Positions 7,716 to 53,430 of a stretch of DNA of 53,836 nucleotides are shown here, piece after piece. Position numbers and translations under genes: made by a program. Numbering within the stretch: the stretch's first letter is position 1; each line of letters starts with the position of its first letter. Below the pieces are notes generated by a model, which was given only the letters and a program-made list of their open reading frames with translations, had not been told where the DNA came from and did no database searches. Source of the DNA: a virus (lineage: Duplodnaviria; Caudoviricetes); the IMG/VR virus record IMGVR_UViG_3300045257_000186, positions 1 through 53,836 of that record, one strand, 5' to 3'.

Positions 7716-8084
7716 ATGGGTACGCTGACGATCCCGACCGTTCCGTTTACCTTACAGACCACGAACCAATTGCCGCCCTACGCAATCGGGACGACTTTGA
7801 GCGCGGCCAGCTACACGTTTGGCCCAGCCGATGCGCAGGTAATTATCCCGTTCAATTCGGGAAGCGGCCAAGTCGCCACTATCCCCGCCGATACTTTCCA
7901 GGTTGGCACGCAATTGACTGGCGTTCAGATGGGTGCCGGAGCCTTGACCTTCGCATCGGGGAACGGCGTCACTTTATTGCCAGCAGGCATCCTTGTCACG
8001 GCGGGCCGGTACGGCATGGTTTCGGTCCTGCAAATGTCGACAAATGTCTGGATTGCGCTCGGCGCTTTCCTCTTTACTCCTTAA
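7716..8084 (+). CDS. small fibre-tip-like beta domain protein
   Basis: AAAGGA RBS; resembles the C-terminal domain of 52174-53430 ('YT..D..I..TI....GTQ....W I.G'). Confidence 0.6.
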   Translation: MGTLTIPTVPFTLQTTNQLPPYAIGTTLSAASYTFGPADAQVIIPFNSGSGQVATIPADTFQVGTQLTGVQMGAGALTFASGNGVTLLPAGILVTAGRYGMVSVLQMSTNVWIALGAFLFTP

Positions 8085-20633: not shown

Positions 20634-22563
<1,930 letters not shown>

Positions 22564-23974: not shown

Positions 23975-24268
23975 ATGGAATTGCTCTGCATCATTTTCTT
24001 TCTCTGGCTGATTAGCTGCGCCTTTCCCTCTAGCGGCAGCGGCCACCATTTCGAGCCTATGATGGTTGTTGTGTTCATCGTTTGCGCAGCGGCGCTCGTT
24101 GGCTATGTAGCCATCGGTATTTACATTATGGCCGGCGTGGATTGGCTTACCGATAGCGGGTGGGTGGCTGTGCTCGCGGGAGCCGCATACTTCGTTGGAA
24201 CGATATGGTTGAATAAGTGGAACGCTGAAAGGCTGGATCGCCGAGATGAAGCGACGCGGCATAATTAA
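23975..24268 (+). CDS. membrane protein, possible holin
   Basis: Three hydrophobic segments, charged C-terminus, directly upstream of lysozyme; AGGAGG RBS region. Confidence 0.5.
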   Translation: MELLCIIFFLWLISCAFPSSGSGHHFEPMMVVVFIVCAAALVGYVAIGIYIMAGVDWLTDSGWVAVLAGAAYFVGTIWLNKWNAERLDRRDEATRHN

Positions 24269-24812
24269 ACGGCTCCGCGCGCTTGCGCCGATGACCGTCA
24301 GTCCGATCGGCGTCGAGAAGATCGTTCAGCGCGAGGGTGTCTACCTCCATGCCTATCAGGATACGGTGGGCGTTTGGACGATAGGGACCGGCCACACCTC
24401 GGCTGCGGGTCCGCCGCCGGTCTACCGGGGAATGACGATAACCGAGCAGCAGAATGAGCAAATCCTAGCGAACGACCTCAAACCGATTGTCGCGCAGCTT
24501 AACGCCACAATCCAGGTACCCTGCCTGCAAAACCAATTCGACGCCTTCGTATCGATCGTTTTCAACGTCGGCCCTAAATTCCTGCACTCGACTGCCATGC
24601 GGTTGTTCAATGCCGGCGACAATGCCGGTTGCGCCCAGGCGATCATGATGTGGCGGATTCCTCCGGAAATCATCGGACGGCGCAATACCGAGCGCATCCA
24701 GTTTTTGACGCCCTATCCGGTGGGTGCTAGAAGCGTACTTCGGCGTGGCAAGGTCAGGCAAAGGTTAGGCTCGGTTAGGCCTGGTGCGGCAAGGCGCGGC
24801 AAGGTGAGGTAA
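24246..24812 (+). CDS. endolysin, GH24 phage lysozyme (start may be 24291); C-terminal tail encoded by array D
   Basis: Catalytic E-x8-D-x5-T 'REGVYLHAYQDTVGVWTIGTGHT', 'QNQFDAFVSIVFNVG', 'RRNTER'. Confidence 0.9.
   Translation: MKRRGIIKRLRALAPMTVSPIGVEKIVQREGVYLHAYQDTVGVWTIGTGHTSAAGPPPVYRGMTITEQQNEQILANDLKPIVAQLNATIQVPCLQNQFDAFVSIVFNVGPKFLHSTAMRLFNAGDNAGCAQAIMMWRIPPEIIGRRNTERIQFLTPYPVGARSVLRRGKVRQRLGSVRPGAARRGKVR
24705..24733 (+). promoter_or_regulatory. sigma70-type promoter inside the lysozyme gene, pointing into GGYNN array D
   Basis: TTGACG-17 bp-TAGAAG, preceded by TGC; predicted start ~24740 at the first pentamer. Confidence 0.6.
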
Positions 24813-24817
24813 GGAAC
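24742..24817 (+). repeat. GGY-NN pentamer array D (putative guide RNA)
   Basis: GGCGT GGCAA GGTCA GGCAA(A) GGTTA GGCTC GGTTA GGCCT GGTGC GGCAA GGCGC GGCAA GGTGA GGTAA GGAAC: 14 GGY units plus terminal GGAAC. Confidence 0.9.
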
Positions 24818-24821
24818 TTCC

Positions 24822-25073
24822 GTGTCAACACAGCAACGATACTCGTTTTTAGCTAACGCCCTAGTCGGTTACGCGCATCAATGGATCGCCACGCTGCCCG
24901 GCTTCGAGCAATCCTTCATCCCGATGGAGAAAATACCAGCCGCGGCGGGCGCGCTGTCGAAATTCTGCGTCGATACGATCGATCAATACGACGCCAAGAA
25001 CCCACCCGTTCCCGCCCCCACGCCGCCCGCACCGGCCTCAACGCCGCTTAAACGAGGAAGGCCACGCAAATGA
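24822..25073 (+). CDS. hypothetical protein (its 5' end resembles the array D decoded target)
   Basis: GTG start after TAAGGA supplied by the array end. Confidence 0.65.
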   Translation: MSTQQRYSFLANALVGYAHQWIATLPGFEQSFIPMEKIPAAAGALSKFCVDTIDQYDAKNPPVPAPTPPAPASTPLKRGRPRK

Positions 25074-25309
25074 CGATTGATCCGAGAGTAGGGGCGTGGG
25101 TGAATTTCATTGTGCTGGTTCTGGGCGCTATCGGTGCTGGCACTGTAGTATTGGCGGGACTTCCAGACGCAACCAATACGATAATCAAGACGTGGGCGCT
25201 TAACGGCGTTGTTATCCTGTCTGCGGCTAACGTAGTGTTTCATCTTTACGACACGCCATCGGTTACGCCTACCGGCCTAAAGCGCATGGTCGCGCCGCCG
25301 CAGCCATGA
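25070..25309 (+). CDS. two-TM membrane protein, holin-like
   Basis: Two hydrophobic helices, in the lysis region. Confidence 0.55.
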   Translation: MTIDPRVGAWVNFIVLVLGAIGAGTVVLAGLPDATNTIIKTWALNGVVILSAANVVFHLYDTPSVTPTGLKRMVAPPQP

Positions 25310-25906
25310 ATGGCCGAACAGGTTGTCATTCAGTTTAGCACCACAGCGCACAATACCTGGCGATTGCGTTGGAAAAACCGTTGGTCAGAAGCCATCCGCC
25401 GCGCCGGCCATACTCAGTTTAGTCATTCCGATCTAGTGCTGGGGGACGGCTCTTTGCTAGGAGCGTCCAACAACCCCAAGGCTCCGGTTATTCGTGGCAA
25501 TCCCAATGGTGTCGCAATAAGGCCGCCAAACTATGAGCTGTGGGGCTACCGCCGTCGCATGGTTCTGGAAACACCACGGGCCAAAGACATCGAAAACCTA
25601 TGGCTGTCGCAAGTCGGCAAGGATTTCGACACAACCTTTATCTGGGATTTTGTCTCCGACAAGTGGCCGGGTGCCCGAGATTGGCGCCTTACCGACCGTT
25701 GGGTTTGTGCCGAAGGTATAACGTGGTCGATGGAGACGGCGGGCTTTTGGGCCGATGATTTTCCTGACGGCAAGCTGCCTTGGCCAAAAAATAGAGTTTC
25801 CCCGACCGATCTGCTATTAGTGCTGTTGACCGACCGCCGATGGGTAAATCGTGATACGTTCTGGAATGCCGTGCCGGGACTGAAACTCGATCCCGGCGAA
25901 ATCTAA
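25310..25906 (+). CDS. permuted papain-like (NlpC/P60-type) amidase
   Basis: His before Cys order: 'FSHSDLVL', 'QVGKDFD', 'WVCAE', 'VSPTDL'. Confidence 0.65.
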   Translation: MAEQVVIQFSTTAHNTWRLRWKNRWSEAIRRAGHTQFSHSDLVLGDGSLLGASNNPKAPVIRGNPNGVAIRPPNYELWGYRRRMVLETPRAKDIENLWLSQVGKDFDTTFIWDFVSDKWPGARDWRLTDRWVCAEGITWSMETAGFWADDFPDGKLPWPKNRVSPTDLLLVLLTDRRWVNRDTFWNAVPGLKLDPGEI

Positions 25907-25917
25907 GGGAGAACACC

Positions 25918-26103
25918 ATGCGGCTCCTGGTGGCGCTTTTGCTTCTATCGCTGATGTTTCCCTTGGGAGGCTGCGCCCTGATCGCCGCTGGCTTTGTCGG
26001 CGCCGCGTTGGAGCGTCATCAATGGGAACAGCAGCGTCAGCAATATTACTACCATCAGTGGGGACGCTACCGCCCAGCCTACTACTCAAACAGAGGACGC
26101 TGA
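25918..26103 (+). CDS. small lipoprotein-like protein
   Basis: Signal peptide with lipobox LGGC. Confidence 0.5.
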   Translation: MRLLVALLLLSLMFPLGGCALIAAGFVGAALERHQWEQQRQQYYYHQWGRYRPAYYSNRGR

Positions 26104-26105
26104 CC

Positions 26106-26447
26106 ATGCGTAAGATGACGATTGCTGCGGTTACGGCGCTGTCTTTGCTGACAGGGTGCAGCTCTGTCCAAATCACCAGTTTTCTAGCACAGGTGCAGGC
26201 GGACGCTGCGAGCCTTTGCCTGTTTGTGCCGACAATTGACACCATCCTCAATGTTGCCGCGGCTCTAGGAATACCGGCAACGGGAATTGCCGGGGCGGCT
26301 ATTAACACGGTCGCCGCTGCGATTTGCAGCCAAGTCCCGCCGCCTGCTTCGGCACGGTTCCGCTCGCTTGCCCCGCAAGGTGGTGGCCCGGCCAAGACTG
26401 TCGGCAACGTCAACGGCGTCCAGGTTAACGGCTGGCGCACGCACTAA
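26106..26447 (+). CDS. lipoprotein
   Basis: MRKMTIAAVTALSLLTGC lipobox; GAGGA RBS. Confidence 0.65.
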   Translation: MRKMTIAAVTALSLLTGCSSVQITSFLAQVQADAASLCLFVPTIDTILNVAAALGIPATGIAGAAINTVAAAICSQVPPPASARFRSLAPQGGGPAKTVGNVNGVQVNGWRTH

Positions 26448-31525: not shown

Positions 31526-31550
31526 CGATTGCTCCTTTCTTCGTCATATC

Positions 31551-31750
31551 TTTCCCTACCTCACCACGCCTTACCGGACCATGCCGGACCAAGCCACGCC
31601 CGACCCTGCCTAGCCGAGGCTTTCCCTACCTTGCCACACCATGCCAAGCCCAACCTGACCTTACCGGACCAGACCCCGCACTACCTTGCCGTGCCTGACC
31701 GTGCCGCGCCCTGCCACGCCATGCCTTGCCCCGCCCTGCCGCACCGGGCC
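31551..31750 (-). repeat. GGY-NN pentamer array A (three tandem putative guide units)
   Basis: 40 in-phase pentamers, 36 matching GGY, starting right after the RAMP gene stop; units end in GGTAG or GGTAG GGAAA. Confidence 0.92.
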
Positions 31751-32326
31751 TCAATCTCTCATGCGGTCCCACCGAACAACGCGAAATGTCCCGAAGGGTC
31801 CGCGCCGTTGCGGCCGAAAATCCCCAATTCCCTGCTGTTCACCGGCCTCAGTTAATAGTTGATGCACAAATTCCTCCGGTAGTAACTTATCGTTTATCGT
31901 CAGAGTGAATTGCGCAGACCAGACGTCAAATCGCGGGCGATGCCTCATTATTCTGCCCTTTGTCGCCGGGATTGACACCGGCCTACTATCAACTTCGAAA
32001 TCTGCCGCCAAGGTTTTGCCGTCGCCGTTCCGAACCGGAATATCGATCTCTTTGACCCTAACCGCAGCCGGCACGACATATTTGGCGGACTTCCGCGAGC
32101 CGCGTAATTTGTGTGCACCGCCCGCTTCTGTGATTGAGCTGGCGATCCAAGTACCGGGGAAATAAAAACCGTTTCCGTTTCTATAAACCACCTTCTCCGC
32201 TTGCTCCCGCGGTGTTCCACGATTTTGAATGATCGTCCGCGTGGTCGTATCGACTTCTGATCCTTCCTCAAACCGATGTTGCAGCATCGGCGTAATACCA
32301 ACAATTGCGCAATCAATCGTAATCAT
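31751..32326 (-). CDS. stand-alone RAMP/Cas7-like RNA-binding protein (Vipr-like effector)
   Basis: 'IVGITPMLQH' first strand, 'FYFPGTWI..SI..AG', 'RPRFDVWSAQFTL', Gly-rich loop 'AGEQQGIGDFRPQRRGPFGTFRV'; AAGGAGG RBS; flanked by pentamer arrays. Confidence 0.8.
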   Translation of the reverse strand: MITIDCAIVGITPMLQHRFEEGSEVDTTTRTIIQNRGTPREQAEKVVYRNGNGFYFPGTWIASSITEAGGAHKLRGSRKSAKYVVPAAVRVKEIDIPVRNGDGKTLAADFEVDSRPVSIPATKGRIMRHRPRFDVWSAQFTLTINDKLLPEEFVHQLLTEAGEQQGIGDFRPQRRGPFGTFRVVRWDRMRD

Positions 32327-32343
32327 AGTGTCCTCCTTCTCTG

Positions 32344-32418
32344 TTACCTGACCTCACCTCGCCATACCCAACCTCGCCTTGCCATGCCTCACCAAGCCTC
32401 ACCTCGCCGGGCCTCGCC
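32344..32418 (-). repeat. GGY-NN pentamer array B (putative guide RNA)
   Basis: 15/15 GGY pentamers, from the exonuclease stop to the RAMP RBS, ending GGTCA GGTAA. Confidence 0.92.
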
Positions 32419-33513
32419 TCAATTACGACCCCACCATGCCGGCATTTCCGCCAAATCCAATTCTTCTGGGGGGTCCAAGATCAGCCACATCTCGTTGGGG
32501 CCGAATTTGTCCATGAATGCGCGATAATTATCCGCCGCCTGATCGAGTGCGCGGCGCGCAACCTCGAGGATCGGGTTTGCAGGACTCAGGATGCGCGACC
32601 ACGTGACCGGTGCGCCCTCGCTCTGGAAAAACACCCATTGCCAGCCGAATTCTTTAGCCGCGGCGCATTTCTTTAAGAAAGCGAAAAGATCGATCGCGTT
32701 CGGAGGATTAAACCGCCCTTCGGCCATGAATTGCGGAATCATCGCCCGCGCCTCCATGTAGTGCGCCGCCTGTATTTCCATCCGACGTTGGGCAATGGCA
32801 ATCCGGCAGGCGGCCGGGAAAGCGAGTTCTCTGGTGTTGGCGATGCTTTTGAGATCGCCGATACCGCGCGGTTTAAGATAGTCGAGCCGCGCCTTGCGCC
32901 GCAGCCCGTCACGGGTCCAAAAGATCGAGATCTCGGGAAGCCCGCCGGTGAAGGCAGGCGCGAGCTTGGGGTTCTTGCTAATCATGGCCGACGCGATTAC
33001 GACGCGATCATAAGTCTCGGAGGGCAGTACCTCTTTCCCCATCTTTTCAGCTTCGGCATTGATCCGCTTGGTCTCTGCCGCCTTCTCAGACGACGGTGCG
33101 CCTTCCATCCAATCGCGCCCCCGCATATACCGCGCACTAAATGCCGCCTCGCCCTCCAGCACCATTTTGTGCATCGCCCGCCCGCGGAGCGTGGCTGGCG
33201 TGTCCCTGTCCTTCGGCCGCTGCGGGTTCATCGGGCTTTCCCACCAGAACGTAGCTGCGTTATCGACCAGCTTCCTCATGTCGGAACTACCCAAGGCGCT
33301 GTCAGCCCGATAAATCTCTTCGTCTAAATCCAGGTAAATGCCGTCCACGAGCGGCTCGACGTTGCCACCCATAGACGTGCCCGTAACCGCCGCCACTTCT
33401 TTCATTACATCTCCTATGTCTCCAGGTGATCTACCGTAGGGCGGCGGATAAGGGCCCGGCTCACCCATTAAATCACGGAACGCTTTGTTCAACCGCTCTT
33501 GGTCAATGGTCAT
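32419..33513 (-). CDS. RecE/exonuclease VIII-like PD-(D/E)XK nuclease
   Basis: 'IY....LGSSDMRKL', 'GRAMHKMVLE', 'EISIFW..KARLDYL..IGDLKS', 'QAAHY'; ATGA overlap with upstream gene. Confidence 0.8.
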   Translation of the reverse strand: MTIDQERLNKAFRDLMGEPGPYPPPYGRSPGDIGDVMKEVAAVTGTSMGGNVEPLVDGIYLDLDEEIYRADSALGSSDMRKLVDNAATFWWESPMNPQRPKDRDTPATLRGRAMHKMVLEGEAAFSARYMRGRDWMEGAPSSEKAAETKRINAEAEKMGKEVLPSETYDRVVIASAMISKNPKLAPAFTGGLPEISIFWTRDGLRRKARLDYLKPRGIGDLKSIANTRELAFPAACRIAIAQRRMEIQAAHYMEARAMIPQFMAEGRFNPPNAIDLFAFLKKCAAAKEFGWQWVFFQSEGAPVTWSRILSPANPILEVARRALDQAADNYRAFMDKFGPNEMWLILDPPEELDLAEMPAWWGRN

Positions 33514-33719
33514 GCCGTGGCCGCCTTTACCGCCCACATGGCGGCATCTTCGTAAGCGTCCTGCGCTAAATCGATTATGTGGAGTTTCACACTTGTCGCA
33601 CCCCCTCTCATTCCCTCGCACAAATCGATCAATTCAGCCGATTTCTGCTTAATCTGGCTCACGAGTGAATTGTCAGACGGATTGAATTTAACGCGAACGC
33701 GGTCCTCGCCGATGGTCAT
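33510..33719 (-). CDS. Acb2/Tad1-like helical-hairpin protein (putative nucleotide-signal sponge, anti-defence)
   Basis: 'GEDRVRVKFNPS..V.QIK..AELID', 'LAQDAYEDAAMWAVKAAT'; AGGAG RBS. Confidence 0.6.
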   Translation of the reverse strand: MTIGEDRVRVKFNPSDNSLVSQIKQKSAELIDLCEGMRGGATSVKLHIIDLAQDAYEDAAMWAVKAATA

Positions 33720-34968: not shown

Positions 34969-35250
34969 ATGATAATCCTCGACGTGCAACCTGTCGGCCA
35001 CAGTCAATTTACCGGCTCGGTCAATGGCGAGGCTCTTGTCGGTCCTACGCCAACTCCCTTCTTTGACGCCGCAAGACGCCTAATGGCGCGGGGTGAGCCC
35101 GCCGATGAGACTTTAGTGATGCGGCATCCCACAGGCACCCTCTCAATTAAAGCTGCCCTTGGCGATGCGGCGCGGCTTGGCGTGCGGGAAGGCAACGGAC
35201 AATTACGGATTGTCGCGTGGGAACCGTACAATGTTCATCGCGGCATTTGA
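34969..35250 (+). CDS. hypothetical protein
   Basis: 93 aa ORF, GGGAG RBS. Confidence 0.55.
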   Translation: MIILDVQPVGHSQFTGSVNGEALVGPTPTPFFDAARRLMARGEPADETLVMRHPTGTLSIKAALGDAARLGVREGNGQLRIVAWEPYNVHRGI

Positions 35251-35767
35251 CCTCGCTACCGCGACCGGCGTGTGCCACGGCACTGTCGGCGGAGTGCCGC
35301 ATGTATGGACGTGGTTTTTAAGCGATAGCGAAGGCGGCCGTCCGGTCAAGCTGGCCTACCTGCGCCGCCTACTCGACAAGTATTTCGAGTCCACCATAAT
35401 TGACGCGGTTTATTACGAGGCGCCGATGCCGCTGCGGGCGATGATGGAACGCGGCGCCAGCGAAGATGTGATTGCACTGCTGCGCGGTTCCATTGGGGTG
35501 CTCGAGAGTTGCGCCGCCCATGCTGGTATCCAGACGATTGAGGCGGTGTCGGTGCAGCGCGCTCGGACCGCGCTGATCGGCCGGCAAACCCGATCCAAGA
35601 TTAAGGGTGCGGGCAAGGAAGCGGTGCAAAGGGTTGCGAAAATGATGGGCGTTGCGGTTACGGACGACCACCAAGCCGACGCTTATGCGTGCTGGTTTTA
35701 CGCCTGCGCCAAGAACAACCCGCGACTAGCCCATATTTCGACGCCATTATTCGCGCGGCAAACTTAG
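35231..35767 (+). CDS. RuvC-like Holliday junction resolvase
   Basis: 'IAAFDLATATG', 'VYYEAP', 'DDHQADA' acidic catalytic motifs. Confidence 0.8.
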   Translation: MFIAAFDLATATGVCHGTVGGVPHVWTWFLSDSEGGRPVKLAYLRRLLDKYFESTIIDAVYYEAPMPLRAMMERGASEDVIALLRGSIGVLESCAAHAGIQTIEAVSVQRARTALIGRQTRSKIKGAGKEAVQRVAKMMGVAVTDDHQADAYACWFYACAKNNPRLAHISTPLFARQT

Positions 35768-35846
35768 TTCCTTACCTTACCGTGCCACACCTCGCCACGC
35801 CCCGCCATGCCATACCCGACCGCGCCGTACCCTACCATGCCACGCC
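35767..35846 (-). repeat. GGY-NN pentamer array C (putative guide RNA)
   Basis: 15/15 GGY pentamers (35772-35846) plus terminal GGAAC; convergent on the RuvC-like stop. Confidence 0.92.
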
Positions 35847-35912
35847 TTTTGGATAAGTCAGCCGCCGAAGGAAAGTTGCGCTACAATCCGCAGCGCTATT
35901 TGCAGGGAGGAC

Positions 35913-36101
35913 ATGATGGACGAAGGTGAGGCTTTAGACGAGGCGCGGGACATGATGAACGATCTCCGCGGCATTGTCGAACTAGCCCGGCAAGTCCGCG
36001 AGGCGCAGAAAAAGTATTTCAAGACACGCGACCGGAACGATCTGGTGGCCTCAAAGCAGATCGAGCGCCGGTTGGACGATGCGCTGTCAGGGCAACGATA
36101 G
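35913..36101 (+). CDS. hypothetical protein
   Basis: GGAGG RBS; 'VREAQKKYFKTR..DL.ASK..E..LD'. Confidence 0.6.
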   Translation: MMDEGEALDEARDMMNDLRGIVELARQVREAQKKYFKTRDRNDLVASKQIERRLDDALSGQR

Positions 36102-46074: not shown

Positions 46075-46284
46075 GTGGCCGCACCCGTCATTCCGAACAC
46101 TGGCCCGCAGACCGTCACCGTCCTCACCGGCAACGAATTGATCTATTTCGAGTACGGCTCGCAGGACTTGCAGCGGATTAAGGCGTCGGACCTAGCTACC
46201 TATATCGCGACATTCCTTGCCGGGGCGACCGGCGCAACGGGGGCCACCGGTGCTACGGGTCCAGCCGGACCGACAGGCGCGTAA
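46075..46284 (+). CDS. minimal collagen-like fibre (shared N-terminal module + short GXT tract)
   Basis: Near-duplicate of the start of the next gene. Confidence 0.65.
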   Translation: MAAPVIPNTGPQTVTVLTGNELIYFEYGSQDLQRIKASDLATYIATFLAGATGATGATGATGPAGPTGA

Positions 46285-47292
46285 ATGGTTGCGCCGATCA
46301 TTCCGAATATCGGGCCGCGAACGCTCACTACGCTCACCGGTAATGAACTCGTCTATCTCGAATATGGCTCTCAGGAGCTTCGGCGCATGAAGATATCGGA
46401 TTTGGCGGCTTATATTTTTAGTTGTCGAGCCGGGCCGACGGGGGCAACAGGCGCGACGGGGGCAACAGGCGCAACTGGTCCCGCCGCATATACCGTCAAG
46501 GCGACCCGCTTCGATGCAACCGGCACGGGGCCGAACGGCACCGGCGGCGACAACGGGACCATGATAGATTTGGCCTCCGACGCAGCGGTTGCAACGAGCG
46601 CGGCAACGGCAAGTTGGGCAGGCTGGATGAAGCTAGGAACTGCGCCCAAAAACGGTACCCAACTCTTCACCAGCGGCGCTATTTTTACCAATTCGGCTGG
46701 CACGTTTTATCTCTCGAGCACCACCTTCAACGTCGTCGCCAACCCGACAGACCTTTACGACAGCTTTAACCAGAATAGCCCGGCCGCGTACTACCCCGCC
46801 GCGTCGCAAGCTGGTGTGCTATCGGAAAATACTTGGTGCTGGCTGGCCGGCAATGCCGACGTCGGCCATGCCGCAGGAGCGCGGACCAATCTGCAATATC
46901 TGGGCGATACCGCCGTTGTGATGACCAGTGCGTTTTCCGGCAATACGGAGACCGGCTCTGCGTTCGTTATTCCGTTCGCCGGCGGCAAAACCGAAATCTC
47001 GGCCTCCTTGGGAGCGGTCATTGATTTTGCCGAGTTGTTCCTGTGGCCCGGTCAGTTGATCGATTGGAGCCAAGTTAGCAACCGGCGCCTGCTCTTCGGC
47101 GCCAACGGCAAGCCGGTCAACCCAGCTGGAGCGATCTCAGCATTTGGTGCGCCTGCGGTTTTCCTCAGCGGCGGTGCAGCGAGTTTCGTCACAAACCAAG
47201 GCAACGGTGGCACGTTCTCACTTTATAAGAACCTTAATACTCCTGCCCTTGGCGGCGTATTATCCGACGCGCCAACCAGCCCGAGCGATTAA
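46285..47292 (+). CDS. fibre protein with short collagen linker and LamG-like head
   Basis: 'PIIPNIGP' module, GAT repeats, 'ASWAGWMK..WCWL..DFAEL'. Confidence 0.7.
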   Translation: MVAPIIPNIGPRTLTTLTGNELVYLEYGSQELRRMKISDLAAYIFSCRAGPTGATGATGATGATGPAAYTVKATRFDATGTGPNGTGGDNGTMIDLASDAAVATSAATASWAGWMKLGTAPKNGTQLFTSGAIFTNSAGTFYLSSTTFNVVANPTDLYDSFNQNSPAAYYPAASQAGVLSENTWCWLAGNADVGHAAGARTNLQYLGDTAVVMTSAFSGNTETGSAFVIPFAGGKTEISASLGAVIDFAELFLWPGQLIDWSQVSNRRLLFGANGKPVNPAGAISAFGAPAVFLSGGAASFVTNQGNGGTFSLYKNLNTPALGGVLSDAPTSPSD

Positions 47293-47294
47293 CG

Positions 47295-47651
47295 ATGACG
47301 GCGAGCCGCGGCAACCAGATCGTCGACAAGCTACGCGGCGACGAACTGTTCTCGTGCGACAATGACGCCAAGAAGATCACGGCGCGCGATCTGCGCGCCT
47401 ATCTCGGCGGCGACCGCGCCGCACCGGCGATCCGGCCGGAAGGCGGCGCTCATCCGGTCCGGGCCAGCGAGTTCCCCAACGCCGAACACGCCATGCAGGA
47501 CGCCGACAGGATTTTAGGCTTGCAGGACGGGCTGAACGTCAATTTCTCCAAGGAACAAATCACCCGTCTTATTTTCCCGCCCACATTTGATCCGCACGTT
47601 CCCGGCGCGCTGTGGAACGACAACGGCACCCCGAAAATCTCCGAGGGATAA
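47295..47651 (+). CDS. hypothetical virion protein, paralogue of 20630-20974
   Basis: See paralogue; C-terminal '[14 protein letters not shown]' motif. Confidence 0.7.
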
Positions 47652-47652
47652 C

Positions 47653-48405
47653 GTGGCGCAAGGTCCCGTCGACCGGATCGACACGCTCTACGGCGATGAG
47701 TTCTTCGTCGTCAGCGGCGATGGCTACGACCGCAAGCAAATAACCGCCGCCAACGTCAAACGCTTCCTCCGCGGCGGCGCAACCGGTGCCACCGGGCCGA
47801 TGGGGCCGACCGGAGCTACCGCAGGCAATACCGGCGCAACAGGCACGAAAGGCGATCCCGGCAAGCCAGGCAATACCGGCGCTGCGGGGGCGACCGGTGC
47901 AGGTGAGCCAGGGCCGGCTGGCGCGACCGGTCACACAGGACCCAAGGGGGCCACAGGTCCGACAGGTCCGCACGGATCGGGCGAAACCGGGGCGATTGGC
48001 CCGCAAGGCAACACCGGCAACACCGGACCGCCTGGGCCGCCCGGTCGTGGCGATCCCGGCCCTAAGGGTGCGATCGGGATCGCAGGAGTGCCGGGATACG
48101 ATGGTGCAACCGGCGCAACCGGACCCGCCGGCACTACCGGGAATACCGGCGCACCCGGACCAGCAGGGTCCGCCGCGACAGGATCAGCCGGCAACACAGG
48201 AGCCACGGGACCAAAAGGGGACATCGGTTCGGGCGCGACAGGATCGACTGGCGCAACTGGCGTTGCGGGCAACACGGGCAACACCGGCCCGCCCGGCCCG
48301 CAGGGCGCGGCATGGGAAGGCCCGATCATCCCGCCCACATTTGATCCGCACATTCCCGGCGCGCTATGGAATAATGGCGGCGTCCCGATGATTTCAGCAG
48401 GCTAA
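47653..48405 (+). CDS. collagen-like protein
   Basis: GXY repeats including GPP/GDP; C-terminal '[14 protein letters not shown]'. Confidence 0.75.
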
Positions 48406-48407
48406 CG

Positions 48408-49949
48408 ATGCCCCCGCCCGTCATCCCGAACCCAGGTGTAGAGATCGTTACCGACCTGTTCGGCGATGAACTGTTCATCTTCGAGTCTGGGTCGCAGCAG
48501 ATCAAAGAGGTCACCGCCGCCAATCTCAAACGCTTCTGTGGCGGCGGCGGTACCGGCGACGGCAATACCGGAGCGACAGGGGCCACAGGCGCAACGGGAG
48601 CTACAGGCAACGACGGCAATACCGGGGCGACCGGGTTAACTGGCGTAAACGGCGTCACGGGAGCAACAGGCGCGGCTGGGACTACCGGCAGCACGGGTTC
48701 GACTGGGCCAACGGGCGCTGCCGGCACGACAGGAAGCACGGGGCCGACCGGGGCCGCCGGCCAAACCGGATCGACCGGCCCAACAGGCGCACAAGGTAAT
48801 ACTGGTAATACCGGGACCGCTGGCGCGAATGGCAATACCGGTGCCACCGGACCAACCGGTGCGGCAGGGCAGACCGGATCGACGGGTCCGACTGGCGCGC
48901 AAGGCAATACGGGGAACACTGGCGCTGCTGGCACCACCGGTTCGACTGGTTCGACAGGCCCCACGGGAGCCCAAGGAAATACGGGTAACACGGGTGGAAC
49001 AGGAGGCACCGGAGTCACCGGCAATACCGGTGGGACGGGTGGGACTGGCGCCACGGGAAATACCGGTGCCGCACAACCTTTCACTTGGAACTACTCGACG
49101 ACGACCACTATGGCGTCGCCCGGTACCGGGTTCTTCCGTGCCGACAACGCGACCTGGGCCAGCGTCGCTAATCTCGCGGTCATGGACACCACTGCGGACA
49201 CCGGCAATCCAGACGTTCACGCTTATCTGGAAGCCATCCCGGTCGGGTCAACGCTCTTCATCAAGGACATCACGACTCTTGGCGCGATCGCCATCTTTAC
49301 CGTCACCACCGTAACCCCGCAGGGCTCGCATACTTGGACCCAATACGCCGTCACCTTCGTCAGCCAAACCGGCACATTCACCAATAACGACAATTGCCAG
49401 ATTTCGTTTGCCGGGCCGAAGGGAAATACCGGAAACACGGGCGGGACCGGAGGAACCGGAGCGACTGGGAATACCGGGGCCGCCGGTACGACCGGCCCGA
49501 CGGGGGCTCAGGGTAATACGGGTGGCACAGGCGGAACTGGACAAACCGGGGCAGCGGGGACCACGGGACCGACCGGTGCGCAAGGAAACACGGGAAATAC
49601 GGGAGGAACCGGGGGCACCGGTGGGACTGGTGGCACTGGTGCTACCGGCGCCGGCTACGCCGTCGGCGCAACGGTCGATTTCAAGTTTTCCACCAAGATC
49701 AACGGCGTGCCGACAAGCCTGACTGGTTCTGCCGCGATCAGCGTGTACCAGGGCGGCAATTCTACGCCGTTCACGACAGGCGTTAGCTTGACGACGGACT
49801 ACAATAGCACCGTGGGATTGAATGACGTTTCGATCGGAGCGACCGGTGCTAATTATACCGCAGGCCATGACTACGACGTGGTGATTACCACGGGGACGGT
49901 CGGTGGTATAAGTCAGGTTGGGACAGTGGTGGGGCACTTTACGCTATGA
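48408..49949 (+). CDS. collagen-like fibre protein with two GXT tracts and two globular domains
   Basis: 'PVIPNPG' module, GXT repeats; C-terminal domain paralogous to 51797-52138. Confidence 0.8.
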
Positions 49950-50875
49950 GCAATGTCAGCTTTCCGCTAACCGACGTCCAAGTCTTTACCAGCGGCTCAG
50001 GCAATTGGACTAAGCCGCAATGGGCGACGCTGGTGCAGGCGATCTGTGTTGGTGCGGGCGGTTCCGGCGGAGGGGGAACCTTTACCGCTACTGGAGCTAG
50101 TGGCACCGGCGGCGGCGGCGGCGGCGGCGCCGCGGCGCCGCTCATCGCGTTTTTCCAACCGTCGGACCTTGGGTCCACCGAAGCTTATGCTGTCGGTGCC
50201 GGCGCAATTGGCGGCACTGGAAGCACGGCCGGCACAGGCGCCTCGGGGACCAACGGCGGAAATTCGACTTTTGGCGGCACCACGGTAGCAATCCAGACAG
50301 CCTATGGCGGCGGCGGCGGCGGCGGCGGCACTATCGTCAGCGGCAGTGTTGGCGGCGGCGGCGCTGGCCTCGCTGGTGCCGGCTCGCAAGGTCAAATTTC
50401 CGCCGGAGGCGCCTCCGGTGCCAACGGCGGCGTTGGCGGTTCTGGAAACGGTAGTAGCGCTGGCACCAACATCGGCGGCGGCGGCGGTGGTAGCGTCAGC
50501 AGCGTGTCGCTTCTCGTAGTCACTCCATCGCCGGTTTTCACGGGGGCCGGCGGCGGTGGTGCCGGTGGTCCGAAAACGACAGTGCCGGCTTATGGTGCCG
50601 GCGGCACCGGAGCATCGATCAATAGTGTGTTGCCGGGTGGAGCGGGGGCGGCAGCTTCGACCGGAACGGTTGGCGGCCCCGGCCTCCCTGGACCGTTCGG
50701 AACTCCTGGCTCCGGGGGCGGCGGCGGAGGCGCGAGCGCAACTGTAGCCGGCAATGGCGGCGCGGGCGGTTATCCCGGCGGCGGCGGCGGCGGCGGCGGC
50801 TCGTCGATCACGACAGGAACTTCGGGGAATGGCGGTGCCGGAGCCAATGGCATTGTCGTTGTTATTTCGACATGA
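49946..50875 (+). CDS. glycine-rich fibre-associated protein
   Basis: '[22 protein letters not shown]', 'GNSTFG..AYGGGGG', 'GANGIVVV'. Confidence 0.75.
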
Positions 50876-51796
50876 CCAACGCCGTTATTTTCCCCCGCAG
50901 CCACCTCGATAAATTCACGACCGGAACTGCTCAATCCTGGTCAAAAGTGAATTGGGCCAAAACCGTCAGGATCATTATGATCGGCGGCGGAGGTGCGGGC
51001 GGCGGCGGTCTTAGGAGCGGTGCAACAGGGAGTGGCGGCGGCGGCGGCGGCGGCGGTCTATTCCTCGACCGCACGTTTGCCGCGAGCCAATTGGGGACTA
51101 CCGAGACTTACACGGTTGGGGCCGCGGTTGTCGGCGGGGCGGGCGCTACCGGCGACACGCTGCCAGGAAACCAAGGTGCAACCGGCAGCTCAACGACTTT
51201 CACTATCGCCGGCCTCGGCATCACCATGACCGCCTACGGCGGCGGAGCCGGCGCGGGGGGCCAAGTAGGAGCAATCTCTGGCGGAGGTGGAGGCGCTGGG
51301 CGTGCCGGCGCAGGTGGCAGTGCCGTGACGTCGACGCAAGGCACAGCCGGTGCAGACGGTGGCGCTACAGGCGCGGTCGGCGGGGGTCCCAATCTCGACT
51401 TTAACGGCGGAGCCGGTGGGTGCAGCGGTCTCAATAGTGCCGCCGCGCCTACACAAGTTGGGCCTGTGGTTCGCGGCGGCGGCGGCGGCGGGGCTGGGTG
51501 TGGCAAAGGAACCGCCACGAATGGCACCGGCGCCACCGGCAACATTAGCCGCGACCAAGCAGGAGGCCTGCCCGGCGCCGCGGGTGTCAATGGCGGCACG
51601 GGAAAGCCGGGGTTTGGCTATCCCGGCAGCGGCGGCGGCGGTGGGGGTTCTGCCTCTGCGGCCGGCGGAACCGCCGGTGCTGGCGGCGACGGCGGCATCC
51701 CTGGCGGCGGCGGCGGCGGAGCCGGCGCAGGCGGCACAGGACATACCGGCGGGGCCGGTGGCACCGGAGCGAGGGGCGAGATTTGGGTTATCCAGT

Positions 51797-51804
<8 letters not shown>
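50872..51804 (+). CDS. glycine-rich fibre-associated protein, paralogue of previous gene
   Basis: Same architecture, 'MIGGGGAGG', 'GARGEIWV'. Confidence 0.75.

Positions 51805-53430
<1,626 letters not shown>

What the first reader, a model, noticed from the sequence alone, without database searches (positions are those of the whole stretch)
24705..24860. Orphan array D has its own promoter and decodes to an allele of the gene immediately downstream
Seen: 14 GGY-NN units lie about 7 kb from the RAMP gene. TTGACG-17-TAGAAG precedes them, placing a transcription start at the first pentamer. NN units 3-11 (CA AA TA TC TA CT GC AA GC) decode to QKYSYLANA. The next gene reads QRYSFLANA at 24834-24860 (caa cga tac tcg ttt tta gct aac gcc). 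Six of nine dinucleotides are identical, and the differences are K/R, Y/F and a synonymous Leu CTN/TTN. This independently reproduces the array C pattern. Inference: a separately transcribed, trans-acting guide against a relative's lysis-region gene.
Basis: partly seen in the sequence, partly recalled or inferred. Interest (0 to 1): 0.9.

Follow-up and report, generated by a model that had tools for sequence, protein, structure and literature searches.

The report
Distal VIPR guide array beside its look-alike gene
This stretch of a soil phage genome is a guide-RNA array of the recently described VIPR system, lying next to a lysis-region gene that its guide code nearly but not fully matches, which suggests it is aimed at rival versions of that gene.

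Summary
The sequence facts hold. At 24742-24817 (+) there are 14 GGY-NN pentamers plus a terminal GGAAC, with one extra A at 24762. Units 3-11 read by the first two codon bases give QKYSYLANA; the next gene has QRYSFLANA at 24834-24860 (14 of 18 bases).

This is not a new kind of element. Three 2026 bioRxiv preprints describe VIPR systems: a small RAMP protein (Vipr), GGY/NN vrRNAs and a one-nucleotide-skip code. The window holds a Vipr gene (31751-32326, Csm3/Cas7-like fold) and five further arrays. Array D shares their 3' end.

The match to the neighbouring gene is probably not chance, but the support is moderate: p 0.001 at amino-acid level against that one protein, and p 0.025 to 0.29 at DNA level depending on the test. 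Two sister arrays show the same pattern more clearly. The array at 35767-35846 decodes to TARMMGVDV, found in natural homologues of the adjacent RuvC-like gene. The array at 32344-32418 matches a relative's exonuclease allele at 16 of 18 bases.

For D, none of 123 homologue clusters and none of the scanned collections holds the decoded allele. The promoter-like motif also occurs in an array-less relative. Verdict: new member of a known kind.

The parts
24705..24733 (+).
   Evidence: Sequence. No E. coli-type site is called in 24200-25400. It is the only match in the window to TTGACGS-N10-14-GCTANAW, with 0.08 expected. The consensus was seen in passages of PMC8144410. The same motif is present in array-less L122. 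It lies inside the endolysin codons QFLTPYPVGA.
24742..24817 (+). Array D: 14 GGY-NN units, an extra A at 24762 and a terminal GGAAC; a vrRNA gene
   Evidence: Its 3' end GGTGA GGTAA GGAAC resembles the ends of the other five arrays.
24246..24812 (+). GH24 endolysin ORF; its last ~26 codons (RSVLRRGKVRQRLGSVRPGAARRGKVR) are array D read in frame, and its TAA stop lies in the array's GGTAA
   Evidence: Pfam PF00959 over aa 28-137 and phrog_7 over aa 15-162. The relative L122 ends ...PYPIGATA* with no array.
24822..25073 (+). 83-aa lysis-region gene of unknown function; near-cognate site 24828-24863, core 24834-24860
   Evidence: Homologues.
31751..32326 (-). vipr gene: a 191-aa minimal RAMP
   Evidence: phrog_4652. 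tblastn finds homologues in 50 loci. AlphaFold2 pLDDT 91.9. Foldseek top hits are Csm3/Cas7 subunits, E 1.6e-6.
32344..32418 (-). Array upstream of vipr (15 units); near-cognate site at 32428-32472 in the last codons of the exonuclease gene 32419-33621
   Evidence: The relative's allele matches 16 of 18 bases over units 1-9.
31551..31750 (-). Three tandem arrays downstream of vipr (14, 11 and 13 units)
35767..35846 (-). Second distal array (15 GGY units plus GGAAC); near-cognate site at 35624-35662 (+) in the RuvC-like gene 35159-35767

Best explanation
Array D is a distal vrRNA gene of this phage's VIPR system.

Inferred from the published mechanism, not tested here: the RNA is bound by Vipr (31751-32326), one protomer per GGY-NN unit. 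The NN pairs then read double-stranded DNA, skipping every third base, which silences the bound gene.

Shown here: the guide (units 1-12, with a matching core at units 3-11) is a near-cognate copy of codons 3-14 of the gene 17 bases downstream.

Inferred: the guide is aimed at variant alleles of that lysis-region gene in competing relatives. The phage's own allele is spared because it matches only 15 of 24 guide bases (62%), below the 80% level the preprints use for natural targets. Placing the guide beside the resistant allele keeps the two together when related phages recombine.

The RNA may come from the promoter-like motif at 24705-24733 or be cut out of the lysis-operon transcript. Neither route was tested.
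For: 1. It belongs to VIPR.
- GGY/NN arrays of 9-16 units, a small RAMP and the one-nucleotide-skip rule are described in 10.64898/2026.04.26.720920 (Results, Discussion and three Methods sections read).
- The window has one array upstream and three downstream of a 191-aa gene.
- That protein folds like Csm3/Cas7.
- It has homologues in 50 loci. All 40 rows I printed were among the 120 contigs chosen only for a (GGYNN)x12 pattern.
- D ends in the same GGTRA-GGTAR-GGAAM motif as the other arrays.

2. D is an insertion. Relative L122 (endolysin 81% identical) goes from the endolysin stop straight to the homologous small gene.

3. The near-cognate site is in frame, with the wobble base skipped. 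Against the downstream protein 7 of 12 units are compatible, p 0.001. The flank shuffle test gives p 0.025.

4. Sister arrays show the same pattern.
- The 35767-35846 guide has its single best window match in the adjacent RuvC-like gene.
- Homologues P0027, P0020 and P0018 carry TARMMGVDV, matching units 4-12, where the phage's own gene has VAKMMGVAV. This is 10 of 13 units and a run of 9; 0 of 400 shuffles reach it.
- The 32344-32418 guide's best hit in relative G001 is the homologous exonuclease end: 16 of 18 bases over units 1-9, against 13 of 18 in the phage itself. Genome-wide shuffle p 0.038.

5. Among 242 arrays in other viral contigs, 5 have flank matches at p<=0.005, against 1.2 expected. 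Several of these are in frame in the neighbouring ORF.
Against: - No sequence with 80% or more NN match to D was found in any of these: the window itself (best 15 of 24); relative G001 (best 16 of 24, shuffle p 0.86); the 168 loci then held; IMG/VR exact scans of units 3-11 (0 hits), units 5-12 (13 hits) and units 1-8 (35 hits).
- The top-scoring of those 48 contigs listed had 25-44% G+C, and none carried a credible full match.
- The genome-collection scan gave 6 hits in unrelated taxa.
- 0 of 123 homologue clusters beat the phage's own gene at the core. The best is 7 of 9, shared by the own gene, P0002 and P0062. D against the family without the own gene gives p 0.06.
- Homologues with DNA in hand match 14 of 24 (L121) and 10 of 24 (L122), counted by hand.
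- DNA-level statistics are marginal and depend on the test: p 0.29 and 0.14. Fisher's combination of the six flank p-values comes to about 0.08 (my arithmetic).
- The extra A at 24762 breaks the register between units 4 and 5.
- Unit 12, next to the 3' handle, mismatches. The structure preprint describes unwinding as sequential and directional with a leading 5' edge (passages). If the 3' units act as a seed, this matters.
- No expression data exist.
Confidence: 0.55

Rival explanations
1. D is a working vrRNA, but its real target lies in an unsampled rival element. The likeness to the downstream gene is chance.
For: Segment score 10 occurs at 5 window positions. The total-score flank tests give p 0.14-0.29. 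No homologue carries the decoded allele. Units 1, 2 and 12 match at chance level.
Against: The amino-acid-level test against the downstream protein gives p 0.001. The site is in frame and 17 bases from the array. Two sister arrays show the same neighbour relation, with support from relatives.
Confidence: 0.25
2. D acts on the phage's own downstream gene. Partial complementarity gives weak, tunable repression of the lysis cassette, a form of lysis-timing control.
For: The phage's own gene is among the three best matches in its family. The array lies in the same transcription unit, between a promoter-like motif and the gene.
Against: The own match is 62% over 12 units. The first preprint reports that disturbing NN pairing abolished silencing, and that no self hit reached 80% in its data sets. 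The relative L122 manages without any array.
Confidence: 0.1
3. The likeness is a trace of how the guide arose or spread. Either guides are made from, or inserted next to, the sequence they match (homing-like), or the match is a decaying relic with no present role.
For: All three near-cognate sites lie 10-140 bases from the insertion point of their array. D and the vipr cassette are insertions relative to G001/L122. Similar flank matches occur in other contigs, such as L066, L033, L084 and L014.
Against: No mechanism for making vrRNAs is known. I found none in the parts of the three preprints that I read. The array-less site in L122 does not match D (10 of 24, hand count).
Confidence: 0.08
4. 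The repeats exist for the protein: a cationic C-terminal tail of the endolysin.
For: The endolysin ORF reads through the array and gains 26 residues rich in R and K.
Against: A period of 5 bases is not a coding period. The other five arrays with the same build lie between genes. The 81%-identical endolysin in L122 lacks the tail.
Confidence: 0.02

Closest known systems
VIPR systems (Vipr RAMP plus vrRNA), e.g. Escherichia phage SUSP1; bioRxiv 10.64898/2026.04.26.720920 and 10.64898/2026.04.26.720927
   Same: GGY/NN pentamer arrays of 10-16 units. A ~21 kDa RAMP. One array upstream and three downstream of vipr. Phage-borne. In-frame matches that skip the wobble base.
   Different: No vap accessory gene was recognised. 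The flanking exonuclease and phrog_3657 genes are also neighbours in the VIPR-less relative. No long conserved 3' tail or pseudoknot, only a short GGTAR-GGAAM end. The host is probably an alphaproteobacterium (GcrA gene), from soil. Two extra arrays lie 3.4 and 6.9 kb from vipr.
Solo/orphan vrRNAs; bioRxiv 10.64898/2026.10.15.759431 (abstract, sections 8, 17, 25, 26 and passages read)
   Same: vrRNA arrays away from a vipr gene that target relatives. For the vrRNA-targeting class, self-match scores are lower than non-self scores.
   Different: That paper calls an array solo when no Vipr lies on the contig or within 20 kb. D is 6.9 kb from vipr in a VIPR-positive phage. For the vipr and satellite target classes, the paper reports that no candidate target region was covered by the phage's own homology. 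Here the phage keeps its own homologue right beside the guide.
Virus-borne mini-CRISPR arrays in interviral conflicts (PMC6858448; only the search listing was seen, content recalled)
   Same: A virus carries guides against close relatives to exclude them.
   Different: Those are CRISPR spacers with contiguous pairing that use the host's Cas proteins. They are not pentamer-coded guides with the phage's own RAMP.
TnpB/IscB omega-RNA guides of IS200/IS605 elements (recalled, no call)
   Same: A mobile element's guide is directed at the sequence next to its own insertion site.
   Different: There the guide is the flank itself and the effector is a nuclease. Here the guide is re-coded at period 5, and no nuclease has been linked to it.

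Membership tests
VIPR system | Small RAMP protein (RRM core, G-loop, thumb), about 20 kDa | tested here: met
   The 191-aa product of 31751-32326 gives an AlphaFold2 model with pLDDT 91.9. Foldseek finds 72 PDB matches at E<=0.001; those I read were backbone subunits of Csm, Cmr and type VII complexes, top TM 0.59. A conserved glycine-rich stretch GxGDFRPxKxGxFGRF is present.
VIPR system | vrRNA arrays of 9-16 GGY/NN (YNNGG) repeats flanking vipr | tested here: met
   15 units upstream; 14, 11 and 13 units downstream.
VIPR system | Invariable structured 3' tail after the repeats | tested here: inconclusive
   The six arrays share only a short end, GGTAR then GGAAM in 4 of 6. The sequences after it differ. 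No fold was tested.
VIPR system | vap accessory gene next to vipr | tested here: not met
   The neighbours are an exonuclease VIII-like gene and a phrog_3657 gene. Both are also present and adjacent in relative G001, which has no Vipr and no array. The preprint says 'typically', so this feature is not strictly required.
VIPR system | Natural target with at least 80% NN match under the one-nucleotide-skip rule | tested here: not met
   For D the best is 15 of 24 in the window and 16 of 24 in G001, with no credible hit in the collection scans. The collection scans needed exact sub-patterns, so they were far less sensitive than the nhmmer search used in the preprint.
VIPR system | Expressed ~100-nt RNA that co-purifies with Vipr | not testable with these tools
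   No RNA data set holds this sequence.
Solo vrRNA (sense of 10.64898/2026.10.15.759431) | [quoted passage not shown] | tested here: not met
   vipr lies 6.9 kb from D on the same 53.8-kb record.

The most novel reading that the evidence does not exclude
Distal VIPR guides are placed right beside the phage's own escape allele of the gene they attack. Guide and resistant allele then form a linked poison-antidote module that recombination between related phages cannot split. Such a module could spread like a drive. The closeness might also point to how new vrRNAs arise, a question the preprint parts I read leave open. Three of the six arrays in this phage fit the pattern, as do a few of 242 arrays in other viral contigs.
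Probability: 0.3. Interest if true: 0.8.

Novelty: new member of a known kind. Interest (0 to 1): 0.5.

Why it matters
VIPR was described only in 2026, and mostly in enterobacterial and Pseudomonas phages. This window adds a compact system in a soil phage, probably of an alphaproteobacterium, with two arrays placed far from vipr.

The point that goes beyond the parts of the preprints I read is positional. Each of three guides nearly matches the gene right next to it, and for two of them relatives carry closer alleles. If this holds generally, it gives a simple evolutionary logic for where guides sit: linkage to the self-resistant allele. It also gives a testable lead on guide origin. For array D itself the case is moderate, not proven.

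Tried and rejected
- Rfam: no family matched in the window at gathering score, nor in five array-bearing loci at E<=0.1.
- Ideas dropped once the VIPR preprint turned up: a binding site for a TRAP-like ring protein, two-tier G-quadruplexes, a translation enhancer.
- Close relatives: blastn against the phage collection gave nothing for 24000-26000 and one weak hit for the vipr region.
- Single-protein locus searches for the 83-aa and RuvC-like proteins in viral contigs found no relative.
- An alignment-based search found one metagenome locus, L121. It found none in genome contigs and none in viral contigs.
- Whole-locus best-match test over 205 arrays: 11 at p<=0.05, which is about the chance rate, and 5 at the lowest attainable p.
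- Genome-wide shuffle tests of score size alone are not significant for any guide in the window (p 0.30-1.0). The argument rests on position, reading frame and relatives, not on score size.
- A tolerant scan found no further arrays in the window.
- Sequencing runs: no RNA holder listed.
- Supplements of the three preprints are closed. Their tables of self-match scores and target lists could bear on whether neighbour matches have already been noted.

Full report
WHAT IS THERE

The window is a whole 53,836-base virus record with 59% G+C. It carries a GcrA-like gene, which points to an alphaproteobacterial host. The only listed sequencing run holding it is labelled a soil metagenome.

On the + strand at 24742-24817 the sequence reads four GGY-NN pentamers, one extra A (24762), ten more GGY-NN pentamers and GGAAC. 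Five further arrays of the same build lie on the - strand:
- 32344-32418 (15 units);
- 31681-31750, 31621-31675 and 31551-31615 (14, 11 and 13 units);
- 35767-35846 (15 GGY units plus GGAAC).

A tolerant scan found no others. All six end alike: a GGTAR unit, followed by GGAAM in four of them.

WHAT KIND OF THING IT IS

A literature search led to the bioRxiv preprint 10.64898/2026.04.26.720920. I read its outline, Results, Discussion and three Methods sections. It describes VIPR systems:
- a phage-borne minimal RAMP protein, Vipr;
- usually one accessory gene, vap;
- vrRNAs made of 9-16 GGY/NN repeats followed by a tail.

The NN pairs read double-stranded DNA with one base skipped per unit, mostly the codon wobble base. 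Natural targets lie in competing phages and satellites.

A structure preprint (10.64898/2026.04.26.720927, passages) shows one Vipr protomer per repeat and sequential, directional unwinding. A third preprint (10.64898/2026.10.15.759431; abstract, four sections and passages) describes solo vrRNAs.

The window fits this description.
- The 191-aa gene at 31751-32326 has one array upstream and three downstream.
- Its AlphaFold2 model (pLDDT 91.9) matches Csm3/Cas7 backbone subunits (top E 1.6e-6, TM 0.59; 72 matches at E<=0.001).
- tblastn with the 191-aa protein then found homologues in 50 of the 162 loci held at that point. All 40 rows I printed were among those 120 pattern-selected loci.

The system is already in print.

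ARRAY D IN ITS SETTING

ORF 24246-24812 is a GH24 endolysin whose domain ends near residue 162. Its last ~26 codons are the array read in frame, and its stop is the TAA inside the array's GGTAA.

A relative, L122 (endolysin 81% identical, in a 45.4-kb record, G001), ends the endolysin at ...PYPIGATA*. It starts the homologue of the 83-aa gene three bases later, with no array between. G001 has no eight-unit array and no Vipr homologue, though the record is only 75% complete.

D is therefore an insertion between the endolysin and the next gene. Likewise, G001 has the exonuclease and phrog_3657 genes with two small ORFs between them, where the window has the array-vipr-arrays cassette.

THE PROMOTER CLAIM

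The stated hexamers are present, but TAGAAG lacks the final T, and the E. coli-type scan calls nothing in 24200-25400.

Read instead against the Caulobacter RpoD consensus TTGaCgS / GCtANAWC (passages of PMC8144410), the site TTGACGC-N14-GCTAGAA is the only match in the window. 0.08 matches are expected, and 6 of 100 shuffles give at least one.

However, the same motif stands at the homologous place in array-less L122, and it lies in conserved endolysin codons. If it is a promoter, it predates the array and serves the downstream genes; the array landed in their leader.

The three tandem arrays at 31551-31750 are separated by only five bases. They must be cut from a common precursor, so D does not need a promoter of its own.

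THE DECODING CLAIM FOR D

The guide NN are GT AA CA AA TA TC TA CT GC AA GC AA, followed by three handle-like units.

Against 24828-24863 the guide scores 15 of 24 bases, with 14 of 18 over units 3-11, in frame with the gene. The tests give different answers:
- Segment score 10 is shared by 5 of about 107,600 window positions.
- Shuffled-guide test in +/-400 nt: p 0.025 for the 10-unit part.
- Total score in +/-1500 nt: p 0.29 for 12 units and p 0.14 for 15 units, the latter at another site.
- Amino-acid level against the downstream protein alone: 7 of 12 units, p 0.001.

Homologues were then examined.
- A first set of 13 showed that each decoded residue occurs somewhere in the family. 10 of 12 units are compatible, shuffle p 0.009.
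- A wider set of 123 clusters has no member better than the phage's own gene. The core maximum is 7 of 9, shared by the own gene, P0002 and P0062.
- The guide against the family without the own gene gives p 0.06.
- The two homologues with DNA in hand score 14 of 24 (L121) and 10 of 24 (L122), my hand counts.

Exact-pattern scans gave no credible target:
- units 3-11: 0 hits in viral contigs and 6 hits in unrelated taxa in genome contigs;
- units 5-12: 13 hits; units 1-8: 35 hits; the top-scoring contigs listed had 25-44% G+C, and none carried a credible full match.

So the likeness to the neighbour is probably real, but the predicted rival allele has not been seen.

THE SISTER ARRAYS

The guide of 35767-35846 has its single best match in the whole window (21 of 32; 19 of 26 without the handle) at 35624-35671. 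This is in frame in the RuvC-like gene, 104 bases from the array; 0-1 of 300 shuffles reach it.

It decodes to V[IM][RS]TAR[IM][IM]GV[DE]VT.
- The phage's own gene reads VQRVAKMMGVAVT.
- Homologues P0027 and P0020 read IMDTARMMGVDVA, and P0018 reads IMATARMMGVDVA.
- These fit units 4-12 without a break: 10 of 13 units. 0 of 400 shuffles reach this total or this run among 41 homologues.

The guide of 32344-32418 matches the last codons of the exonuclease gene ten bases upstream, at 13 of 18 bases over units 1-9. Its best hit in G001 is the homologous site, at 16 of 18 over units 1-9 and 17 of 24 over 12 units; shuffle p 0.038 genome-wide.

The three arrays right after vipr show no such match.

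Against this, Fisher's combination of the six flank p-values is only about 0.08 by my arithmetic. The pattern therefore rests mainly on the relatives.

BEYOND THIS WINDOW

Of 242 arrays in the fetched viral contigs, 5 reach p<=0.005 for a near-cognate site within 400 bases, against 1.2 expected. At p<=0.05 the count is 16 against 12.1 expected. Cases such as L033, L084, L066 and L014 lie in frame in the neighbouring ORF. The excess is small.

HOW IT MOST LIKELY WORKS

- Shown: the array, its shared 3' end, the Vipr fold, the insertion, and the in-frame near-cognate site.
- Taken from the preprints: filament assembly on GGY, NN reading with one base skipped, and silencing.
- Inferred: D is aimed at variant alleles of the downstream lysis-region gene in related phages. 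The phage's own allele escapes through K/R, Y/F and CTN/TTA changes and further mismatches (62% identity, below the 80% used in the preprints). The guide sits beside that allele so that recombination cannot separate them.

The rival readings are given with their odds in the Rival explanations section: chance likeness with a target elsewhere, weak self-regulation, a trace of guide origin or homing, and a coding tail.

NOVELTY AND VERDICT

The system, the code and orphan vrRNAs are in print, so this is a new member of a known kind.

I did not find neighbour-allele placement in what I read of the three preprints. The first preprint reports no self hit at 80% or more. The third reports that, for the vipr and satellite classes, no candidate target region was covered by the phage's own homology.

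Interest 0.5.

Noticed in passing
window 24732-24812: The endolysin ORF runs through array D and gains a 26-residue tail rich in R and K. The array's GGTAA supplies the stop codon, and its AAGGAA end lies 5 bases before the GTG start of the next gene, like a ribosome-binding site.
   Followed up: partly
window 31526-32418 versus L161 5655-6040: The array-vipr-arrays cassette lies between the exonuclease VIII-like and phrog_3657 genes. The VIPR-less relative has two small ORFs at that place.
   Followed up: partly
Many contigs hold several arrays, some in tandem modules with a conserved hairpin-like 3' flank (e.g. L018, L036, L002).
   Followed up: partly
L033 1085-1129; L084 6382-6417; L066 about 7852-7893; L014 9940-9981: Arrays in unrelated viral contigs also have 70-79% one-nucleotide-skip matches within 5-160 bases, several in frame in the neighbouring ORF.
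   Followed up: partly
window 35878-35896 (-) and 35952-35980 (-): A terminator-like hairpin and a weak promoter-like site lie just upstream of the 35767-35846 array.
   Followed up: no
window 20971-22563 and about 46200-53100: There are long collagen-like G-x-x repeat genes, probably tail fibres, with many period-9 tandem repeats.
   Followed up: no
window 25918-26447: Two overlapping small ORFs have lipobox-like N-termini (LGGC, LTGC) downstream of the endolysin. They could be spanin-like lysis genes.
   Followed up: no
window 32775-32813 (-): The guide of array 31551-31615 has its single best window match (segment score 12) here, out of frame in the exonuclease gene. Probably chance.
   Followed up: no
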